Origin: Octopus vulgaris
Lineage: Eukaryota
Length of the DNA stretch: 64,000 bases
Assembly (NCBI GenBank): GCA_951406725.2
Contig: OX597823.1
Coordinates: forward strand, 56,172,001 to 56,236,000
Reading direction: 5' to 3'
Position 1 is the stretch's first letter. The number at the start of each line of letters is the position of its first letter. This document shows positions 3,455-55,816 of this stretch, one piece after another. A program made the position numbers.

Positions 3455-4362
3455 CGTCTCTACAATAGGCACAAGGCCTGAAATTTATGGGGAATGTATA
3501 AGTCGATCACAACGACTGGTACTTAATTTATTGCCCCCGAAATGATGAAAAGCAAAGTTGATCTTGGCGGAATTTGAACTCAAAAACGAATGAAATGCGT
3601 TGTTTATTTTGATATGAGATCACCATGTCGCGCACATATGGTTGTGATGCATGTTCCTGGTGTACCCTCATCAGACGGGTCATCATGGTGGGTATATTGG
3701 GCTTCGTATATTTGTACCCCAGTGTCACTTTGATGGCATGCACTCCTCTGCTCTCTCACTCAATAATAATATGACAGCAGGATAACAGGAAACGTACACG
3801 AACAAGGTACATACCTTGACGAAATTATTTAGCTTTTGCTTTTGGTGCTTTCTTCTGTGTGTGTCACGAAGAGATATTGTGCAGTTCAATGATTACTACT
3901 CCATGTACAAACTAAAGCATTCAACATAATGTCGTGTTATTTTCTGAGTAATAAAATTACCAATTATATTTGCAGCCTTCCTGTGCAATGCAGGGAAAGA
4001 TGTTCTGCAAGTTTTATGGCATCTGTGCGACGATTTGTGATGGCCATGTAGAATGTTTCGATGGAAGCGACGAGAGAGGCTGTGCAACAACAGGTACTGT
4101 ATATAAATTGATATCTATGTACATTCACATGTGCACGCACACACTCGCACAAACACACACAAACACATACACATACAAATATACAGTTTCGTTACCATTG
4201 TTCAAATGAAGAAGTGGCCCAAAATTATACATAGTTCTGTCTGCGTGCATGTATGTATGTACACGCATGTGTGTGAGTGCGCGCGTGTGTGTGTATTTAT
4301 GTATTTATGCATGTATGAATATATGTAGATAGATAGATAGATAGATAGGTAGATAGATAGAG

Positions 4363-4398
<36 letters not shown>

Positions 4399-4433
4399 GG
4401 ATGGATGGATGGATGGATGGATAGACAGTCAGC

Positions 4434-50300: not shown

Positions 50301-53300
50301 GTCCTTCATCTTTTCACCCCTACTCTCTTTCCCTCCTCTTCCTTCCTTTCCCTTCTTCCCTCTTCTTCTTTCTTCTTTCTTCTTTCCCCTCTCTCTTTCT
50401 CTCTGCTCCCTCACTCCCCTTCTCTTCCCCTCATCCTCCTCTCCCTCTCCCCTCCTTTCCCCTCCTCTTCCTCTCCTTCACCCCTCCCTTCTCCTCCCCT
50501 TCCCCATCCTTCTCCTCCTCTCCTTCTTTCTCCTCCCCTCCACCTTCTCTTCTTCTCCCCCTCTCCTTCCTTCTCCCCTCTCCCCTTCCCCCTCCTCTCC
50601 CTCCTCTCTCTTCTCTCCCCCACACCACACTACACTACACCATACGACATTACACATCACATCATACATACACACGTCCAAACCACCAGCCCTCTTCCAT
50701 ATGCACATACATACTCTCTTATGCACACACGCACCTTCAGGTTGGAGCGAGGTCACTTGACCCTGTTATCTCCCCTACTATCCCTCTAGTGTCTAACGTC
50801 TGACCTCTAACGTTTGACCTCCGATCTCTGACTTCTGAAATAGGAACGCCATGTTGGATCGCTAGCCCCTACACGCAATTTTTTTCTCTCCTTGTTTCTT
50901 TTCTGTGTATCTTTCTGTCGAAGAACATTAGGCTCGAAACGTAAAAGACTTGTTTTATTTCTATTCCTGAGCGCCATACTAATACATTATTTGTTTGTAC
51001 TTCACCTGCCTTCGTCTTTTGTTAATTTTCGTAAACCTTCCTATTTGTCTTATATATAATGATGAACATACAATTACAGGTGTATGAAATGTATTTATAT
51101 GAGAATTGTATTTGCAATTTACATTTAGGTCTTGTCTTTGCACCTTATCATATGATCAGAGAATGGTTGATATAATAATGTATATAATGAGACAGATTTA
51201 ATATTGAGGAAATATTATTCATAAATATAAAAGCAACAATAATATCGGTTAGCGCGAATCTTTATAGTTGAGTATTTCCTTGAGGCCAATTCATATTCAT
51301 CAAAAGGCTAATGGCGAATTCATAAGACAAAAGTTTATTAAAAAAATATGCTCAATAAATTAAACAGAAAGAAAGAGATAATAGAGTGGATGTAGTGAGA
51401 AGTAGGTAGGCTGGATGTACAAGAAGATATGAAGAGTGTATTAATAAGGCAACCGAAAGTGTAGCTATAAGCGGATAGGTTTTAGAGGAGGGAAGATATA
51501 TCAAGTGACCAAGGGATAATGAAGAAAGAGAGAGAGAAAGCAAAGAAACAATGGGAAAAAAGATAAGATAGGACTGGCGAGAATGTCAGTTAGTCGGTGC
51601 GATATATCCACTTTCTCTAAACAGGTGTTATAAAGTTGAATGATGAGAAAGATGGGTAAAGTAAACAAAAATATAGATAAGACCTGTCAGATTATAAGGA
51701 TCAGCAGTTTGATATAGTAGCTGCGACGTCTAGTATAAGTGTCCCGTATAGAAATGTAGTAGTAGAGTAAAGACTATGATGGCGAACTACTAAACAGAGG
51801 TAAAGGAAAGAAGGGGAAAAGGTGTGTGAGAGGGAGATAAACAAGAGTTCGTTCGGGTCTGGAAGCAGAGCTTAAGTATAACATATTTCAAGATACAGTT
51901 CGAATGAAGAGAGGTCGTAATGGTAGCGAAGCTATGTAGACAAGAATAAAACAGAAGCAAGGGAGGAAACAAAGAGCAAGAAGGGATGAAAGAAAAAATA
52001 TAAACACTAAAGCTTATCTGGGTCGTTCTGAGCTGACATGAAAAAGATTTACAAAAATTATGGCAACAGAAATTAATTACATCACAGAATTTGTTAAGCT
52101 CTTCATTCTCACGTAGTATTTCTAGGGATTTTCGGCAGCATAAATTACATGCTAGTCAACTTCCATAGTACAGTATTTCCGTGATAATGATTGGCCAGGA
52201 GATATCATAGGATATATCTTTCGCTTTGAGGTAGTATATATAAACAATCACAGAAGTAGATCTTCACTTAGTATTAGAGAAAGAGCTAACATGTTGATCT
52301 TTGATCCTATATATATTCAGCTGGAGTTATAGTGTGTGGTAGTAACTATACACGTATATATATTTTAAAGGAGACAATGGTCCTTCAGATGGCAGTGAAT
52401 GGGTATTCTAAAGCTACATGTCTTCTTATCTATAGTCTATCATTATGATGGAAATTGACTAGCATGTAATTTATGCTGCCGAAAATGCCTAGAAATACTA
52501 CGTGAGAATGAAGACCTCCTTAACAAATACTGTGATGTAGTTTCTGTCTTATCAATTTCTGTCTTCTATATCTTAGACATAATACATTCTTTCTCTCGTA
52601 TAGATCAATACGAATGGCATTATCATCGATATTATTATTGATAATATTATTATCACCATCATTATTACAAGCCTTAATGATTAGTGACATTTCGTACGTC
52701 TTTACGTTCTTGGTTCAAATCCCGGCAACGTCGACTTTGCTTTTCATCCTTTCGGGATCAATAAAGTAAAATGCACGTACCAATTGAGTACTGGGTCGAT
52801 GTAATCAACCTGCTCTCTCTCTCTCAAAATTGCTGGCCTTGTACCAAAATTTGAAACCATTATTATTGTTGTTGTTGTTGTTATTGAGTGAGAGAGCAGC
52901 ACACGCTATCAAAGTGATTCTGAGTACGAATATACGAAGCCCAACATTCCCGTCATAATTACCAATCTGATAAGGGTACACCAGGCACATGCATAACGAC
53001 TATATATGCGCGACATGGTGATCTTATATCAAGATAAACAGTACATGACTTTGCAGTAGGGCCCAGTTAGAATTTTCTTCAGATCGAATAACCAATCCCG
53101 TTCAAAAGGTCCTCGAATTAGAGTTGCTTAGGAATGATGAACACAACATCCATGTTTCCAGGGGTGACCTATTCAAACTGCAAAGAATCCCTCCTCAACA
53201 CATGGCTATGTTGTTCCCTCATTACTCTTGCTCGTGATCAGAGATGCACATATCGTCAGCCACTAAGGTATATGCTCAACTAAAGTCATGCAATTGACAA

Positions 53301-55816
53301 GCAAATCTATTGTATTCAGCAGAATATTTACTCTGGTCCGTCTTTTATACCAAGACAAGACGGCGAGCTGGTAGAATCGTTAGCACGTCGGGCGAAATGC
53401 TTAGCGGCATTTCGTCCCTTTTTACGTTTTGAGTTCAAATTCCATTGAGGTCGATTTTGCCTTTCATCCTTTCGGAGGTCGAAGAAATAGTATAAGTTGA
53501 GTGCTGGGAAGGATGTAATCGACTATCCCCTCCCACAAATTTCAGGCCTTGTCCTTATAGTATAAATGATTAGTATGAAAAATGCGGCGTGCTGGCAGAA
53601 TCGTTAGCACACCGGACAAAAATGCTTAGCGGCATTTCGTCCGTCCTTACGTTCTGAATTCAAATTCCGCCGTGGTGGACTTTGCCTTTTCATCCTTTCG
53701 GGGTCGATAATTTAAGTGTCAGTCAAACACTGTGCTCGATGCAATCGACTTAACCCCTACACCAAAATGGCTGCCCTTGTGGAAAAATTTGAAACCATTA
53801 TTATTGTTGTTGTTATTGTTATGATTATTGTGTTGCTGATAATGTAACTGTTAATATGATTAACTCTTGCGCTAACCTATGAATGGGCAATGGTCCTATT
53901 ATAAATGCTCATAAAATATATACGGATATATATATATATATACGCGAGAAAGAAGCAACAAGAATGGATAGGTTTTTAGTACAATCGTTTCATACAAGGA
54001 CAGGCTTTATTAAAAGTTGCAAAAATTGCAGCATATAAACGTGTCCCGTACTCATCAGCTAAAATACATGTGAGTTCTCTAGACATCCTAGTGGTTGAGG
54101 CTATACTCATGAAGTAATGTAGATAATTAAGTAACATAAACAGATTTTCAAAGTTCATTAAAGTTCTTTAAAAGTTCTTTAAAGATGATGTACAGTCTTA
54201 TCACAGAATTTTAAAAAAGTTTTAATAGCATCACAGAGAAGGTGACTTAATCCATAGTGTACATATGAATTTCCAGAGATATGAGGAGGGATTACATACT
54301 CACAGACGACAAATTTATCCATTGCTAATCACAACGAGGTGGGTCTCAATTCCTGCTTATTAGCATTACAGAGAGGGTGAATTAATCCTTTGTATAGATG
54401 CACAATTTCCAATGGTGTAGATGTAAATTTCCAGAGAAATGAAGAGGAATTTCATGTTCACAGGCGATAAATTTATCAATGGTTGAACACAATGAGGTAG
54501 GTATCAATTCTTGCTATATGATTAGGTATTTGCCACATTAATCACATTACTGCTATTTTCAAGAGACTGTAGCTATTTAACTTTTAAAGGCTGAAGGGCT
54601 TTCTAGAGAGGCAAAGAACAGAAAAGGGAAGGAAAGAGAAGAAAAGAGAGAAAATAAAGGAGGAGGGAGCAAAAGGGGGGGGGGACTAAAAGAGAAGAGA
54701 AAAGGAAAAAGAAAAAAGAAAAAGAGAATAAGAAGAAGAAAAAGAAAAAAGAGAAAAGAGAAAGAAATAGGGAAAGAAGGGAAAAAAAGAAAAAGAAAAA
54801 AAGAGGGTTCTAGTTATACAGAAGAATTAGTAGACGGCAAGTCTGGTTTTAATTTACAGGCATCTAGGAACTAGAGGAGAATATTATTCTTTGACCAGTA
54901 AAACAGCTAATTTATTGCTGTTGAAAGCAGCTATGAATTTAAAGAGAATCTAAAGAGATAACACGGTCACATGTATTTTAGCTGATGAGTACGGGACACG
55001 TTTATATGCTGCAATTTTTGCAACTTTTAATAAAGCCTGTCCTTGTATGAAACGATTGTACTAAAAACCTATCCATTCTTGTTGCTTCTTTCTCGCTTAT
55101 AATCACCCCACATTACTGTATTGTTAAAACCGTATAGTTTTTTTTGGTGCATCTAAGTTAGGTACCATATTCAAGTAAATTCATTTAAATTAACTTGAAT
55201 CTTTATTGCTTTTTGTATATATATATATATATATATCTTTCTGTTAACGGAAGGAATAACAATATTATTTACGCCTTTTTAATTTCACAGTGATAGCCTT
55301 AAAAACAGCATTATGACTACTTTGATTATGCATACGTACAAATGGACAAGATATATGAATCTAGATTTATATACAAATGTTATCTTACAGATGCCTCTTA
55401 CTGGTCTGAATGGTCTCCTTGGTCAAATTGTTCATCAGACTGTAATGCGCAGAAGCAAACTAGGACGAGGTAAGTTTTAAAATCTCATTTAAAAATTTCT
55501 CGATCAATTATTTTTGACATAAGTACAAAGTCATGAATGATTATGAACAGTAGTTATAAATGATTGAGTCGACTCCAGTACCTGAATTTCGAGGAAAATC
55601 AAAATTGTTACCATCACCCTTTCAAACACAGGAAGACAAAATCGCTGAGATTCGTCGAGGTCTTGATTCAGATGATATCCAGAACGTATTAAATATTAGT
55701 TTCAAATTTTGGTACAAGGCTAGCAATTTTGAGGGAGCGATAAGTCGATTACATCGATCCTAGTGCTCAACTGATACTTATTTTATCGACCCCGAAAGGA
55801 AGAAAGGCAAAATCGA

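What the first reader, a model, noticed from the sequence alone, without database searches (positions are those of the whole stretch)
3976..55469. Giant beads-on-a-string mucin: 15 discoidin/FA58C-like domains alternating with Thr-rich linkers, flanked by LDLa, FA58C and TSP1 modules
Seen: splicing the exons gives one continuous frame of ~4,300 aa. Each 270-aa repeat is a ~126-aa domain closed by a Cys pair (C QLVDT...EVKIWE C) followed by ~140 aa of T/P/S/A-rich sequence. Established: LDLa, FA58C and TSP1 occur together in SCO-spondin, and FA58C domains in hemolectin-like proteins; discoidin folds often bind carbohydrate or lipid. Inference: a multivalent lectin-like mucin that could cross-link its own O-glycans, with FA58C domains in the role CysD domains play in vertebrate gel mucins (mucus, adhesive or egg-coat material). 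I do not recognise this architecture from a characterised protein.
Basis: partly seen in the sequence, partly recalled or inferred. Interest (0 to 1): 0.82.

Follow-up and report, generated by a model that had tools for sequence, protein, structure and literature searches.

The report
Giant mucin-like gene with discoidin-like beads
The window holds a large multi-exon animal gene segment that would encode fifteen almost identical units, each a small discoidin-like domain followed by a threonine-rich mucin linker; it is a rare but not unique variant of known domain-plus-linker mucins.

Summary
A 1614/1632-bp unit is repeated 15 times at 98-100% identity (11893 to about 37011). Each unit carries three exons, A, B and C. 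All 45 exons keep AG/GT and have no stops, and together they sum to 4,062 codons. Each 270-aa unit is a 126-aa domain bounded by two cysteines plus a 144-aa linker (T 48%, P 12.5%, A 12.5%, S 10%).

An LDLa-like exon, a two-exon FA58C domain and half a TSP1 domain flank the array on the same strand in compatible phases, giving about 4,320 codons. No RNA evidence links them. A decayed sixteenth B exon carries a stop and would have to be skipped.

Calling the domain discoidin-like is supported only indirectly:
- exon B scores below the Pfam threshold;
- it aligns with a certified FA58C protein at hhalign 76%;
- language-model neighbours are FA58C families;
- an AlphaFold model of a distant annelid relative matches neuropilin b1, DDR2 and factor VIII C2.

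The joined B+C test was left out.

The architecture is not unique. Dimorphilus DgyrCDS6478 and one unnamed database protein share it, and MUC16 is the closest functional analogue. Lectin-type self-cross-linking remains speculation. I rate it a new variant of a known kind, of moderate interest.

The parts
3976..4093 (+). LDLa-like exon (118 nt, phase 0 to 1), six Cys and DGSDE
   Evidence: AG at 3974-75 and GT at 4094-95 read. Pfam Ldl_recept_a scores 21.5 bits, E 2.7e-4, below the cut-off of 24.1, and matches only the second half of the model.
11893..37011 (+). Tandem array of 1614/1632-bp genomic units: 15 full units plus a truncated unit at each edge
   Evidence: Units differ by 1-11 positions, apart from units 2 and 3, which carry an 18-bp insertion.
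12202..13609 (+). Unit 1: exons A 12202-12384, B 12583-12860, C 13261-13609
   Evidence: AG/GT at all three exons, no stops
13816..15241 (+). Unit 2: exons A 13816-14016 (201 nt), B 14215-14492, C 14893-15241
15448..16873 (+). Unit 3: exons A 15448-15648 (201 nt), B 15847-16124, C 16525-16873
17080..18487 (+). Unit 4: exons A 17080-17262, B 17461-17738, C 18139-18487 (the unit read base by base)
18694..20101 (+). Unit 5: exons A 18694-18876, B 19075-19352, C 19753-20101
20308..21715 (+). Unit 6: exons A 20308-20490, B 20689-20966, C 21367-21715
21922..23329 (+). Unit 7: exons A 21922-22104, B 22303-22580, C 22981-23329
23536..24943 (+). Unit 8: exons A 23536-23718, B 23917-24194, C 24595-24943
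25150..26557 (+). Unit 9: exons A 25150-25332, B 25531-25808, C 26209-26557
26764..28171 (+). Unit 10: exons A 26764-26946, B 27145-27422, C 27823-28171
28378..29784 (+). Unit 11: exons A 28378-28560, B 28758-29035, C 29436-29784
29991..31398 (+). Unit 12: exons A 29991-30173, B 30372-30649, C 31050-31398
31605..33012 (+). Unit 13: exons A 31605-31787, B 31986-32263, C 32664-33012
33219..34626 (+). Unit 14: exons A 33219-33401, B 33600-33877, C 34278-34626
34833..36240 (+). Unit 15: exons A 34833-35015, B 35214-35491, C 35892-36240
36447..36647 (+). Sixteenth linker exon (201 nt, phase 1 to 1, open, AG/GT)
   Evidence: It is 85.6% identical to the exon C tail plus intron of a full unit.
36863..37011 (+). 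Decayed, truncated sixteenth exon B (pseudo-exon). The acceptor is kept, the first Cys is lost, and there is an in-frame stop at 36961-36963.
43963..44225 (+). FA58C domain, first exon (263 nt, phase 1 to 0), starts VPGVC
   Evidence: Splice sites read. PF00754 scores 18.3 bits, E 0.0026, model positions 5-82 of 127. Weak PDB hits to factor V/VIII-type C domains, E 0.015-0.7.
48525..48639 (+). FA58C domain, second exon (115 nt, phase 0 to 1), ends ...DVMGC
   Evidence: Splice sites read. No Pfam hit on its own. Assigned from its position, its phase and the terminal GC motif (inference).
55391..55469 (+). First half of a TSP1 domain (79 nt, phase 1 to 2), WSEWSPWSNCSSDC
   Evidence: Splice sites read. 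PF00090 scores 23.9 bits against a cut-off of 21.6, model positions 1-22 of 49. The rest of the domain was not found in the window.

Best explanation
This is the central part of a large multi-exon gene of an invertebrate. I infer a lophotrochozoan from the relatives; the organism was not identified. The gene would encode a mucin-like extracellular glycoprotein.

A three-exon cassette (A-B-C, 810 coding nt, entering and leaving in phase 1) has been amplified to 15 almost identical copies by recent unequal crossing-over or gene conversion. Each cassette encodes a compact 126-aa domain with a cysteine at each end, followed by 144 aa of Thr/Pro/Ala/Ser linker. The domain is a divergent member of the discoidin (F5/8 type C) / galactose-binding-domain-like fold.

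Inferred mechanism: the linkers are densely O-glycosylated and stiffen into extended bottle-brush spacers. The 15 evenly spaced domains then act as identical binding nodes. The molecule binds a repeated ligand (glycan, matrix or surface) with high avidity and links it non-covalently into a mucus, an adhesive or a coat.

Shown here: the repeat, the exon structure, the phases and the composition. Indirectly supported: the fold. Inferred: secretion, glycosylation, ligand binding, and that the LDLa-like, FA58C and TSP1 exons belong to the same transcript.
For: - All 45 of 45 cassette exons are open with AG/GT. Donors are strong (CAG|GTATGT, GGA|GTAAGT), and exons A and B have long pyrimidine tracts.
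- The cassette is phase-symmetric, and the flank exons fit in phase at all three junctions.
- The linker has 84 Ser+Thr in 144 aa and no Cys.
- Exon B has cross-species relatives. Nine of 1.84 billion representatives reach E<=0.001, the best at 59% identity. Six of them align in register on Cys, Met, Ser, Gly, Trp, Asp, Pro and Asn-Val.
- Four of those six read Val exactly where the window has the exon B donor, as expected if the intron is shared.
- Link to discoidin, by sequence: P0003 is F5_F8_type_C x3 at 157.8 bits. It matches exon B by phmmer at E 7.3e-7, by hhalign at 75.6% with Cys and Trp in register, and by BLASTP without the linker at E 9e-6.
- Link to discoidin, by language-model features: the first Atlas hit for exon B scores 0.95 and is an F5/8 type C cluster, and all ten best hits with a family share its family or clan.
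- Link to discoidin, by structure: an AlphaFold model of one domain of the profile-matched annelid protein P0010 (pLDDT 70.4, pTM 0.70) gives 70 PDB matches at E<=0.001. Neuropilin b1, the DDR2 discoidin domain, CBM32 and factor V/VIII C domains lead the list at TM 0.57-0.61.
- P0010 itself alternates T-rich linkers with domains of 109-154 aa bounded by Cys.
Against: - Tested exon by exon, the domain fails the Pfam threshold. Exon B scores 12.9 bits against 28.2 and exon C scores nothing.
- The family profile finds 0 PDB sequences at E<=10.
- The model of exon B alone is poor (pLDDT 65.1, two short strands) and has 0 Foldseek matches.
- hhalign of the family against the window's own FA58C exon gives 0.4%. 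BLASTP of exons B and C against the FA58C exons gives E 0.077 and no alignment.
- The modelled relative is distant. BLASTP of exon B against P0010 gives E 2.0, and the link is by profile only (E 1.2e-5). Four of the five models had pLDDT 42-57.
- The Atlas recognition value, 2298, is just under its 2300 mark, and the shared features, 140, are under 170.
- No start codon or signal-peptide exon was found, and there are no RNA data.
- A stop-bearing pseudo-exon with an intact acceptor lies between the array and the FA58C exon.
- Introns are almost as uniform as exons (pi 0.0054 against 0.0033; 17 of 804 against 13 of 810 variable columns). Ten of 11 variable exon sites change the amino acid. The copies therefore show no selection of their own, and the copy number may depend on the assembly.
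- No protein of this locus is in either protein library.
Confidence: 0.6

Rival explanations
1. Two genes or transcripts rather than one. The LDLa-like, FA58C and TSP1 exons would belong to a SCO-spondin-like or other matricellular gene. The 25-kb cassette array would be a separate transcript, or an insertion lying in that gene's intron, and would end at the stop in the decayed sixteenth B exon.
For: - The decayed exon B keeps its acceptor and ends in a stop at 36961-36963, which would close an array-only reading frame.
- The array edges are abrupt and abut retroelement fragments.
- Introns of 8.1 kb and 7.3 kb full of repeats separate the array from the flank exons.
- The array domain is not a close paralogue of the flank FA58C.
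- LDLrA, FA5/8C and TSR co-occur in SCO-spondin (PMC8487547, passage in section 5).
Against: - All three flank junctions are phase-compatible. By chance this is about 1 in 27, though less rare among phase-1 extracellular modules.
- Exons A and B and the first FA58C exon all open with a split Val-Pro codon pair.
- The LDLa exon ends in Ala-Thr-Thr, running into the linker.
- An array-only transcript would have no plausible start. The only upstream ATG in frame (11890) gives no signal peptide.
Confidence: 0.25
2. A very young, inert amplification or an assembly-inflated repeat. The cassettes look intact only because they have had no time to decay, and the locus is not expressed as a protein of this size.
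For: - Units differ by only 1-11 of 1614 positions, and introns are as uniform as exons.
- Ten of 11 variable exon sites are non-synonymous.
- No matching protein is in the libraries.
- Tandem-repeat counts in mucin genes have been mis-assembled before: MUC16 was revised from 63 to 19 repeats (PMC10829539, abstract).
Against: - The exon B type is conserved across genomes, with invariant core residues and a shared intron position.
- A predicted annelid protein has the same layout.
- Concerted evolution produces exactly this uniformity in working mucin genes (general knowledge, recalled).
- There are no N gaps in the array.
Confidence: 0.12
3. Same protein, different role for the domain. It would not be a sugar-binding lectin. 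It would be a protein- or lipid-binding discoidin module, as in DDR2, neuropilin b1 or factor VIII C2, or a passive folded spacer that punctuates the mucin brush.
For: - The best structural matches are neuropilin b1 and DDR2 (peptide and collagen binders), ahead of CBM32 sugar binders.
- Six tandem discoidin domains form the adhesive and cohesive protein Nectin of sea urchins (PMC10057474, passages).
- The domain is compact (126 aa) and lacks part of the usual C-terminal half.
Against: - CBM32 modules bound to galactose and Tn antigen are also among the matches.
- Atlas neighbours include mollusc fucolectin-type clusters.
- No binding-site residues could be assessed for either view.
Confidence: 0.3

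Closest known systems
MUC16 (CA125) tandem-repeat region
   Same: Each repeat is one small folded domain plus an unstructured Pro/Ser/Thr-rich linker, repeated many times. The copy number is hard to assemble (PMC10829539, abstract and passages).
   Different: The MUC16 domain is SEA, not discoidin-like. Its repeats are 156 aa and partially conserved, against 270 aa and 99-100% identical here. MUC16 is a vertebrate membrane mucin. No SEA match was seen here.
DgyrCDS6478 of Dimorphilus gyrociliatus (P0010; predicted, uncharacterised)
   Same: T-rich linkers alternate with domains bounded by Cys. It matches the exon B family profile at E 1.2e-5. No Pfam domain is recognised. Its domain models as a discoidin-like sandwich.
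   Different: Its domains are 109-154 aa and of about three subtypes. Pairwise BLASTP to exon B is not significant (E 2.0). It is 1,760 aa long.
P0003, an unnamed 491-aa database protein
   Same: Three discoidin domains are separated by Thr/Pro linkers. It shares the Trp core motif with exon B.
   Different: It is canonical F5_F8_type_C (157.8 bits) with short linkers of about 25 aa. Its source is unknown because the look-up could not be made.
Lophotrochozoan gel-forming mucin-like proteins and insect hemolectin
   Same: They combine mucin-type PTS regions and F5_F8_type_C domains. The paper calls the F5_F8 domain characteristic of Lophotrochozoa (PMC4948705, passages).
   Different: Those proteins are defined by VWD-C8-TIL units, with the F5_F8 domains clustered in the middle. 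No VWD, C8, TIL or CTCK was found among the 48 window translations scanned. That paper's supplementary figure S4 could not be seen.
SCO-spondin
   Same: LDLrA, FA5/8C and TSR modules occur in one giant secreted protein (PMC8487547, section 5 passage).
Sea urchin Nectin
   Same: It has tandem discoidin (FA58C) domains in a secreted adhesive and cohesive protein. FA58C recurs in temporary adhesives of several phyla (PMC10057474, passages).
   Different: It has six contiguous canonical domains at 47-55% identity, no mucin linkers, and is 984 aa long.
Insect intestinal mucin / peritrophins (recalled from memory, no call)
   Same: Carbohydrate-binding modules are interspersed with mucin-like linkers in a secreted matrix protein.
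   Different: The modules are chitin-binding (CBM14-type) rather than discoidin-like. This was not checked with any tool here.

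Membership tests
F5/8 type C (discoidin) domain, Pfam PF00754 | Match to the family HMM at or above the gathering score (28.2 bits) | tested here: not met
   Exon B scores 12.9 bits, E 0.12. Exon C has no match. The test was exon by exon only; the joined B+C domain was not searched.
F5/8 type C (discoidin) domain, Pfam PF00754 | Module of about 130-150 aa with a Cys near each end | tested here: met
   The span is 126 aa from Cys to Cys, with only these two Cys, in 15 of 15 units. 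That they form a disulfide is inferred.
F5/8 type C (discoidin) domain, Pfam PF00754 | Core sequence motifs alignable in register with a certified member | tested here: met
   hhalign of A1 against P0003 gives 75.6%, E 2.4e-5, over 85 columns with Cys and Trp aligned. BLASTP gives E 9e-6 over 29 aa. The strength is moderate. Against the window's own FA58C exon the result is only 0.4%.
F5/8 type C (discoidin) domain, Pfam PF00754 | Eight-stranded beta-sandwich fold, for the window's own domain | tested here: inconclusive
   Only exon B could be modelled: pLDDT 65.1 and 0 Foldseek matches. The joined domain was left out.
F5/8 type C (discoidin) domain, Pfam PF00754 | The same fold in a relative of the domain family | tested here: met
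   P0010 residues 1110-1268 give pLDDT 70.4 and pTM 0.70. Top PDB matches are neuropilin b1, DDR2 DS, CBM32 and factor VIII C2 at TM 0.57-0.61, with 70 matches at E<=0.001.
Mucin (PTS-domain glycoprotein, broad sense) | Long tandem Pro/Thr/Ser-rich regions | tested here: met
   There are fifteen linkers of 144 aa (150 aa where exon A is 201 nt, units 2 and 3), with T 48%, P 12.5%, S 10.4% and 84 Ser+Thr in the 144-aa linker.
Mucin (PTS-domain glycoprotein, broad sense) | Signal peptide or secretory route | tested here: inconclusive
   The LDLa-like exon needs an upstream phase-0 exon. None was recognised in 1-3975, which is filled with repeat fragments.
Mucin (PTS-domain glycoprotein, broad sense) | Dense O-glycosylation | not testable with these tools
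   This needs glycoproteomics.
Gel-forming mucin / hemolectin class | VWD-C8-TIL units and a C-terminal cystine knot | tested here: not met
   None appeared among 48 window translations scanned with Pfam or in motif scans. Exons outside the window cannot be seen.
SCO-spondin | LDLrA, FA5/8C and TSR modules in one protein | tested here: inconclusive
   One of each is present on one strand in compatible phases. That they share a transcript is unproven.
SCO-spondin | [quoted passage not shown] | not tested
   None was seen in the window (same calls as above).
MUC16-type repeat (works like, not a member) | SEA domain in each repeat | tested here: not met
   No SEA match for exons A, B or C.

The most novel reading that the evidence does not exclude
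The array domain and its few relatives form an undescribed, lineage-restricted branch of the discoidin fold that current Pfam models miss. Together with the annelid protein they would define a class of 'lectin-mucins' in lophotrochozoans. Such proteins would gel or stick without VWD/cystine-knot disulfide polymerisation, because each molecule carries many identical discoidin-like nodes that bind the O-glycans of neighbouring molecules.
Probability: 0.12. Interest if true: 0.7.

Novelty: new variant of a known kind. Interest (0 to 1): 0.45.

Why it matters
If the model holds, it adds a discoidin-like module to the short list of folded domains that punctuate mucin brushes (CysD, SEA, chitin-binding modules). 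It also points to a divergent discoidin subfamily that standard domain models miss: only 9 of 1.84 billion representative proteins matched.

Such proteins are candidates for invertebrate mucus, adhesive or coat materials. Multivalent, non-covalent cross-linking in those materials is of interest for biomaterials research.

The locus is also a clean example of a three-exon, phase-symmetric cassette kept uniform by concerted evolution. Much of the functional story is still inference.

Tried and rejected
- **Exon B against longer proteins** (162-2000 aa): nothing.
- **Profile A1 against longer proteins** (518-2000 aa): one hit, P0010.
- **One P0010 domain against proteins of 968-3080 aa**: only P0010 itself.
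- **Profile A1 against PDB sequences**: 0 hits.
- **Exon B alone, modelled and searched by fold**: uninformative.
- **Exons B and C against the flanking FA58C exons**: not significant by BLASTP or hhalign. I dropped the idea that the cassette is a recent copy of the neighbouring FA58C. Only the equivalent phase-0 intron position remains as a hint.
- **Rows dropped from the 9 library hits before building A1**: P0002 (an 88-aa unit repeated about 11 times, 23% identity, score summed over 10 stretches, nonsense Pfam rows; judged repeat-inflated) and P0008 (a 1,105-aa protein matching only 49 residues in a repetitive tail). P0003 was kept apart as the comparator.
- **Adding exon C to alignment A2**: MAFFT misplaced it, so A2 was not used.
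- **Sources and names of P0001-P0009**: the look-up could not be made.
- **Whole-frame Pfam scan**: Twenty Cys-rich stop-free frames were scanned instead and no further extracellular module was found.
- **Rfam**: no family.
- **Literature**: four searches for a described discoidin-plus-PTS alternating mucin found none. Supplements are closed, and many journals are not in the library.
- **Collections**: The prokaryote genome collection was not used because it is not relevant.

Full report
**What is there.** The window has no N. I do not take it for human: its coding relatives are an annelid protein and mollusc-labelled clusters. From 11893 to 36437 a genomic unit of 1614 bp (1632 bp in two copies) recurs at 98-100% identity. 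A decayed last unit carries the homology to about 37011. The strong negative GC skew over 12-36 kb reflects the ACN-rich coding strand.

**Exon model of the cassette.** I read one unit base by base. It has three exons with good splice signals:
- Exon A: 17080-17262, phase 1 to 1.
- Exon B: 17461-17738, phase 1 to 0.
- Exon C: 18139-18487, phase 0 to 1.

Locating the six boundary contexts in all units and translating each exon on its own shows that 45 of 45 exons keep AG/GT and have no stop. Exon A is 183 nt in 13 units and 201 nt in units 2 and 3. The array codes for 12,186 nt, or 4,062 codons. Each 270-aa unit is a 126-aa stretch from Cys to Cys (85 aa from exon B, 41 aa from exon C) plus a 144-aa linker. 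The linker is T 48%, P 12.5%, A 12.5%, S 10.4%, has 84 Ser+Thr and has no Cys.

**Flanks.**
- 3976-4093 is an LDLa-like exon, phase 0 to 1. Pfam gives 21.5 bits, under the 24.1 cut-off.
- 36447-36647 is a sixteenth linker exon.
- 43963-44225 and 48525-48639 are the two exons of an FA58C domain, phases 1 to 0 and 0 to 1. PF00754 gives 18.3 bits for the first and nothing for the second. Weak PDB matches go to factor V/VIII-type C domains.
- 55391-55469 is the first half of a TSP1 domain, phase 1 to 2. PF00090 gives 23.9 bits, over the 21.6 cut-off.

All junctions are phase-compatible. The exon lengths add up to 12,962 nt, or 4,320 codons plus 2 nt. I obtained this by adding lengths and phases.

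Three things weaken the 'one continuous frame' claim:
- There are no RNA data.
- The LDLa-like exon needs an upstream phase-0 exon, and I could not find one in the repeat-filled first 4 kb.
- A truncated, decayed sixteenth exon B (36863 to about 37011) keeps its acceptor but has an in-frame stop at 36961-36963. It must be skipped, or a short alternative donor must be used.

No other extracellular module was found. Among 48 window translations scanned with Pfam and in motif scans there is no VWD, C8, TIL, EGF or cystine knot.

**How the array arose.** Units differ by 1-11 of 1614 positions, apart from the 18-bp insertion shared by units 2 and 3. Nucleotide diversity is 0.0033 in exons and 0.0054 in introns, with 13 of 810 exon columns and 17 of 804 intron columns varying. 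Of 11 variable sites in aligned codons, 10 change the amino acid. This uniformity is the signature of very recent amplification or ongoing concerted evolution. It is not selection on each copy, and it means the copy number may be variable or dependent on the assembly. The array edges fall inside exons: mid exon C linker at 11893, next to a retroelement fragment, and mid exon B at about 37011. The diverged sixteenth unit at the 3' edge fits the usual picture of older copies at array margins.

**What the domain is: relatives.**
- Exon by exon, Pfam does not recognise it. Exon B gives F5_F8_type_C at 12.9 bits, E 0.12, and exon C gives nothing.
- A full HMMER scan of 1.84 billion representatives with exon B found only 9 proteins at E<=0.001. 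The locus's own protein is not in that library, nor among proteins of 162-2000 aa in the larger one.
- Six hits (P0001, P0004-P0007, P0009) are short ORFs or fragments. They align in register with invariant Met, Ser, Gly, Trp, Asp, Pro and Asn-Val. Four of the six read Val exactly after the point that matches the exon B donor, as a read-through GT would. This suggests the intron is shared.
- I dropped P0002 and P0008 as repeat-inflated or marginal.
- The ninth hit, P0003, is a certified discoidin protein: F5_F8_type_C x3 at 157.8 bits, with Thr/Pro linkers between the domains.

**What the domain is: evidence for a discoidin fold.**
- hhalign of the exon B family against P0003 gives 75.6% over 85 columns, with the N-terminal Cys, the Trp and the following strands in register.
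- BLASTP without the linker gives E 9e-6 over the 29-residue core.
- The language-model Atlas puts exon B next to F5/8 type C and fucolectin-type clusters, with a first hit of 0.95. Its own quality marks are borderline.
- The family profile also found DgyrCDS6478 of the annelid Dimorphilus gyrociliatus (P0010, 1,760 aa, E 1.2e-5). This protein has no Pfam domain but the same layout: T-rich linkers alternating with domains of 109-154 aa bounded by Cys.
- An AlphaFold model of one of its domains, using an eight-row alignment, reached pLDDT 70.4 and pTM 0.70; the other four models reached 42-57.
- Foldseek then found 70 PDB matches at E<=0.001. Neuropilin b1, the DDR2 discoidin domain, CBM32 modules and factor V/VIII C domains lead the list at TM 0.57-0.61.

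**What the domain is: evidence against or missing.**
- The family profile finds no PDB sequence.
- Exon B alone models poorly and matches nothing.
- The family is not close to the window's own FA58C exon.
- P0010 is linked only by profile; pairwise BLASTP gives E 2.0.

My reading is that this is a compact, divergent member of the discoidin / galactose-binding-domain-like fold. Confidence is moderate, and the direct test on the joined domain is still to be done.

**How it most likely works.** The sequence shows a protein segment of 15 identical folded nodes, spaced by 144-aa (150-aa in units 2 and 3) Thr-rich segments that carry no cysteine. Three steps are inferred from what is established for mucin PTS regions and discoidin domains:
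- The linkers are O-glycosylated and extended.
- The two Cys of each domain close it with a disulfide, as in factor V/VIII C domains.
- The loop face of each domain binds a ligand, so the molecule acts as a multivalent, high-avidity cross-linker in mucus, adhesive or matrix.

Whether the ligand is a sugar (as for CBM32), a protein or a lipid (as for DDR2, neuropilin and factor VIII) cannot be told from these data. Binding of the molecule's own O-glycans is possible but has no specific support.

**Comparison with what is known.**
- The design principle of one folded domain plus one PST linker per repeat is that of MUC16, which has 19 SEA-plus-linker repeats (PMC10829539, abstract and passages).
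- F5_F8_type_C domains are reported as characteristic of lophotrochozoan gel-forming mucin-like proteins, but within VWD-C8-TIL proteins (PMC4948705, passages; its supplementary figure could not be seen).
- Tandem discoidin domains make the sea urchin adhesive Nectin, and FA58C recurs in temporary adhesives (PMC10057474, passages).
- LDLrA, FA5/8C and TSR co-occur in SCO-spondin (PMC8487547, passages).
- Four literature searches found no description of an alternating discoidin-plus-PTS mucin. The annelid prediction and P0003 show that the layout exists elsewhere.

I therefore file it as a new variant of a known kind, not as categorically new.

**Other content of the window.**
- The only virus-like material I saw is retroelements. 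I describe them by bounds and counts alone in the items noticed in passing.
- About twenty copies of a SINE-like repeat and several microsatellites fill the introns.

**Left unchecked.**
- The joined B+C search and fold.
- The sources and names of P0001-P0009.
- Paper supplements.
- The closed metagenome and viral collections.

Noticed in passing
window 58609-62842 (+): LINE-like retroelement downstream of the finding. It has a 409-aa first ORF with a Myb/SANT-like match, then an ORF with AP-endonuclease and reverse-transcriptase matches. The second ORF is interrupted once by a change of frame inside the RT domain, whose last part matches in another frame. There is no other copy in the window.
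   Followed up: partly
window 48686-50177 (+), tail to about 50800: Penelope-like retroelement (RT motifs by eye, which is recalled; GIY-YIG match at 18.7 bits, below the cut-off). It sits in the intron just after the second FA58C exon. Its 5' part is missing, and its reading frame is broken three times: two in-frame stops and at least one frameshift, counted from the frame lists. Its Ser/Pro/Leu-rich tail has a 74% copy at 56945-57295.
   Followed up: partly
window 5353-6309 (-); 11230-11734 (+); 2286-2477 (+); 1045-1566 (-); 1865-2125 (-): Retroelement fragments. The first has a partial RVT_1 match (25.2 bits, below the cut-off). The others look like the C-terminal tail of non-LTR reverse transcriptases by eye (recalled) but have no Pfam match. 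The one at 11230-11734 lies in two frames (one frameshift) and abuts the 5' edge of the array.
   Followed up: partly
window, e.g. 41100-41420; 22 further matches between 559 and 63937: A SINE-like interspersed repeat of about 110-290 bp at 70-91% identity, on both strands. It clusters at 40.9-42.0 kb and also appears near 3.4, 11.0, 38.2, 53.5 and 63.5 kb.
   Followed up: partly
window 2707-2842, 4326-4514, 55819-56004, 56621-56945, 57972-58284: Long microsatellites: (AAT)45, (TAGA)47 and three (TA)n tracts of 93-160 units. The (TAGA) tract lies 230 bp after the LDLa-like exon.
   Followed up: no
protein P0002 (not in the window): A 997-aa database protein made of about 11 copies of an 88-aa unit. 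It matched exon B at E 1.2e-12 through ten weak stretches (23% identity) and gives nonsense Pfam rows. I judged it repeat-inflated, but it remains unexplained.
   Followed up: partly
window 11875-11995 (+): A truncated linker tail of exon C type sits at the 5' edge of the array. Its donor is intact, but there is no convincing acceptor and a stop lies just upstream in frame. It is probably a relic left in the intron between the LDLa-like exon and unit 1.
   Followed up: partly
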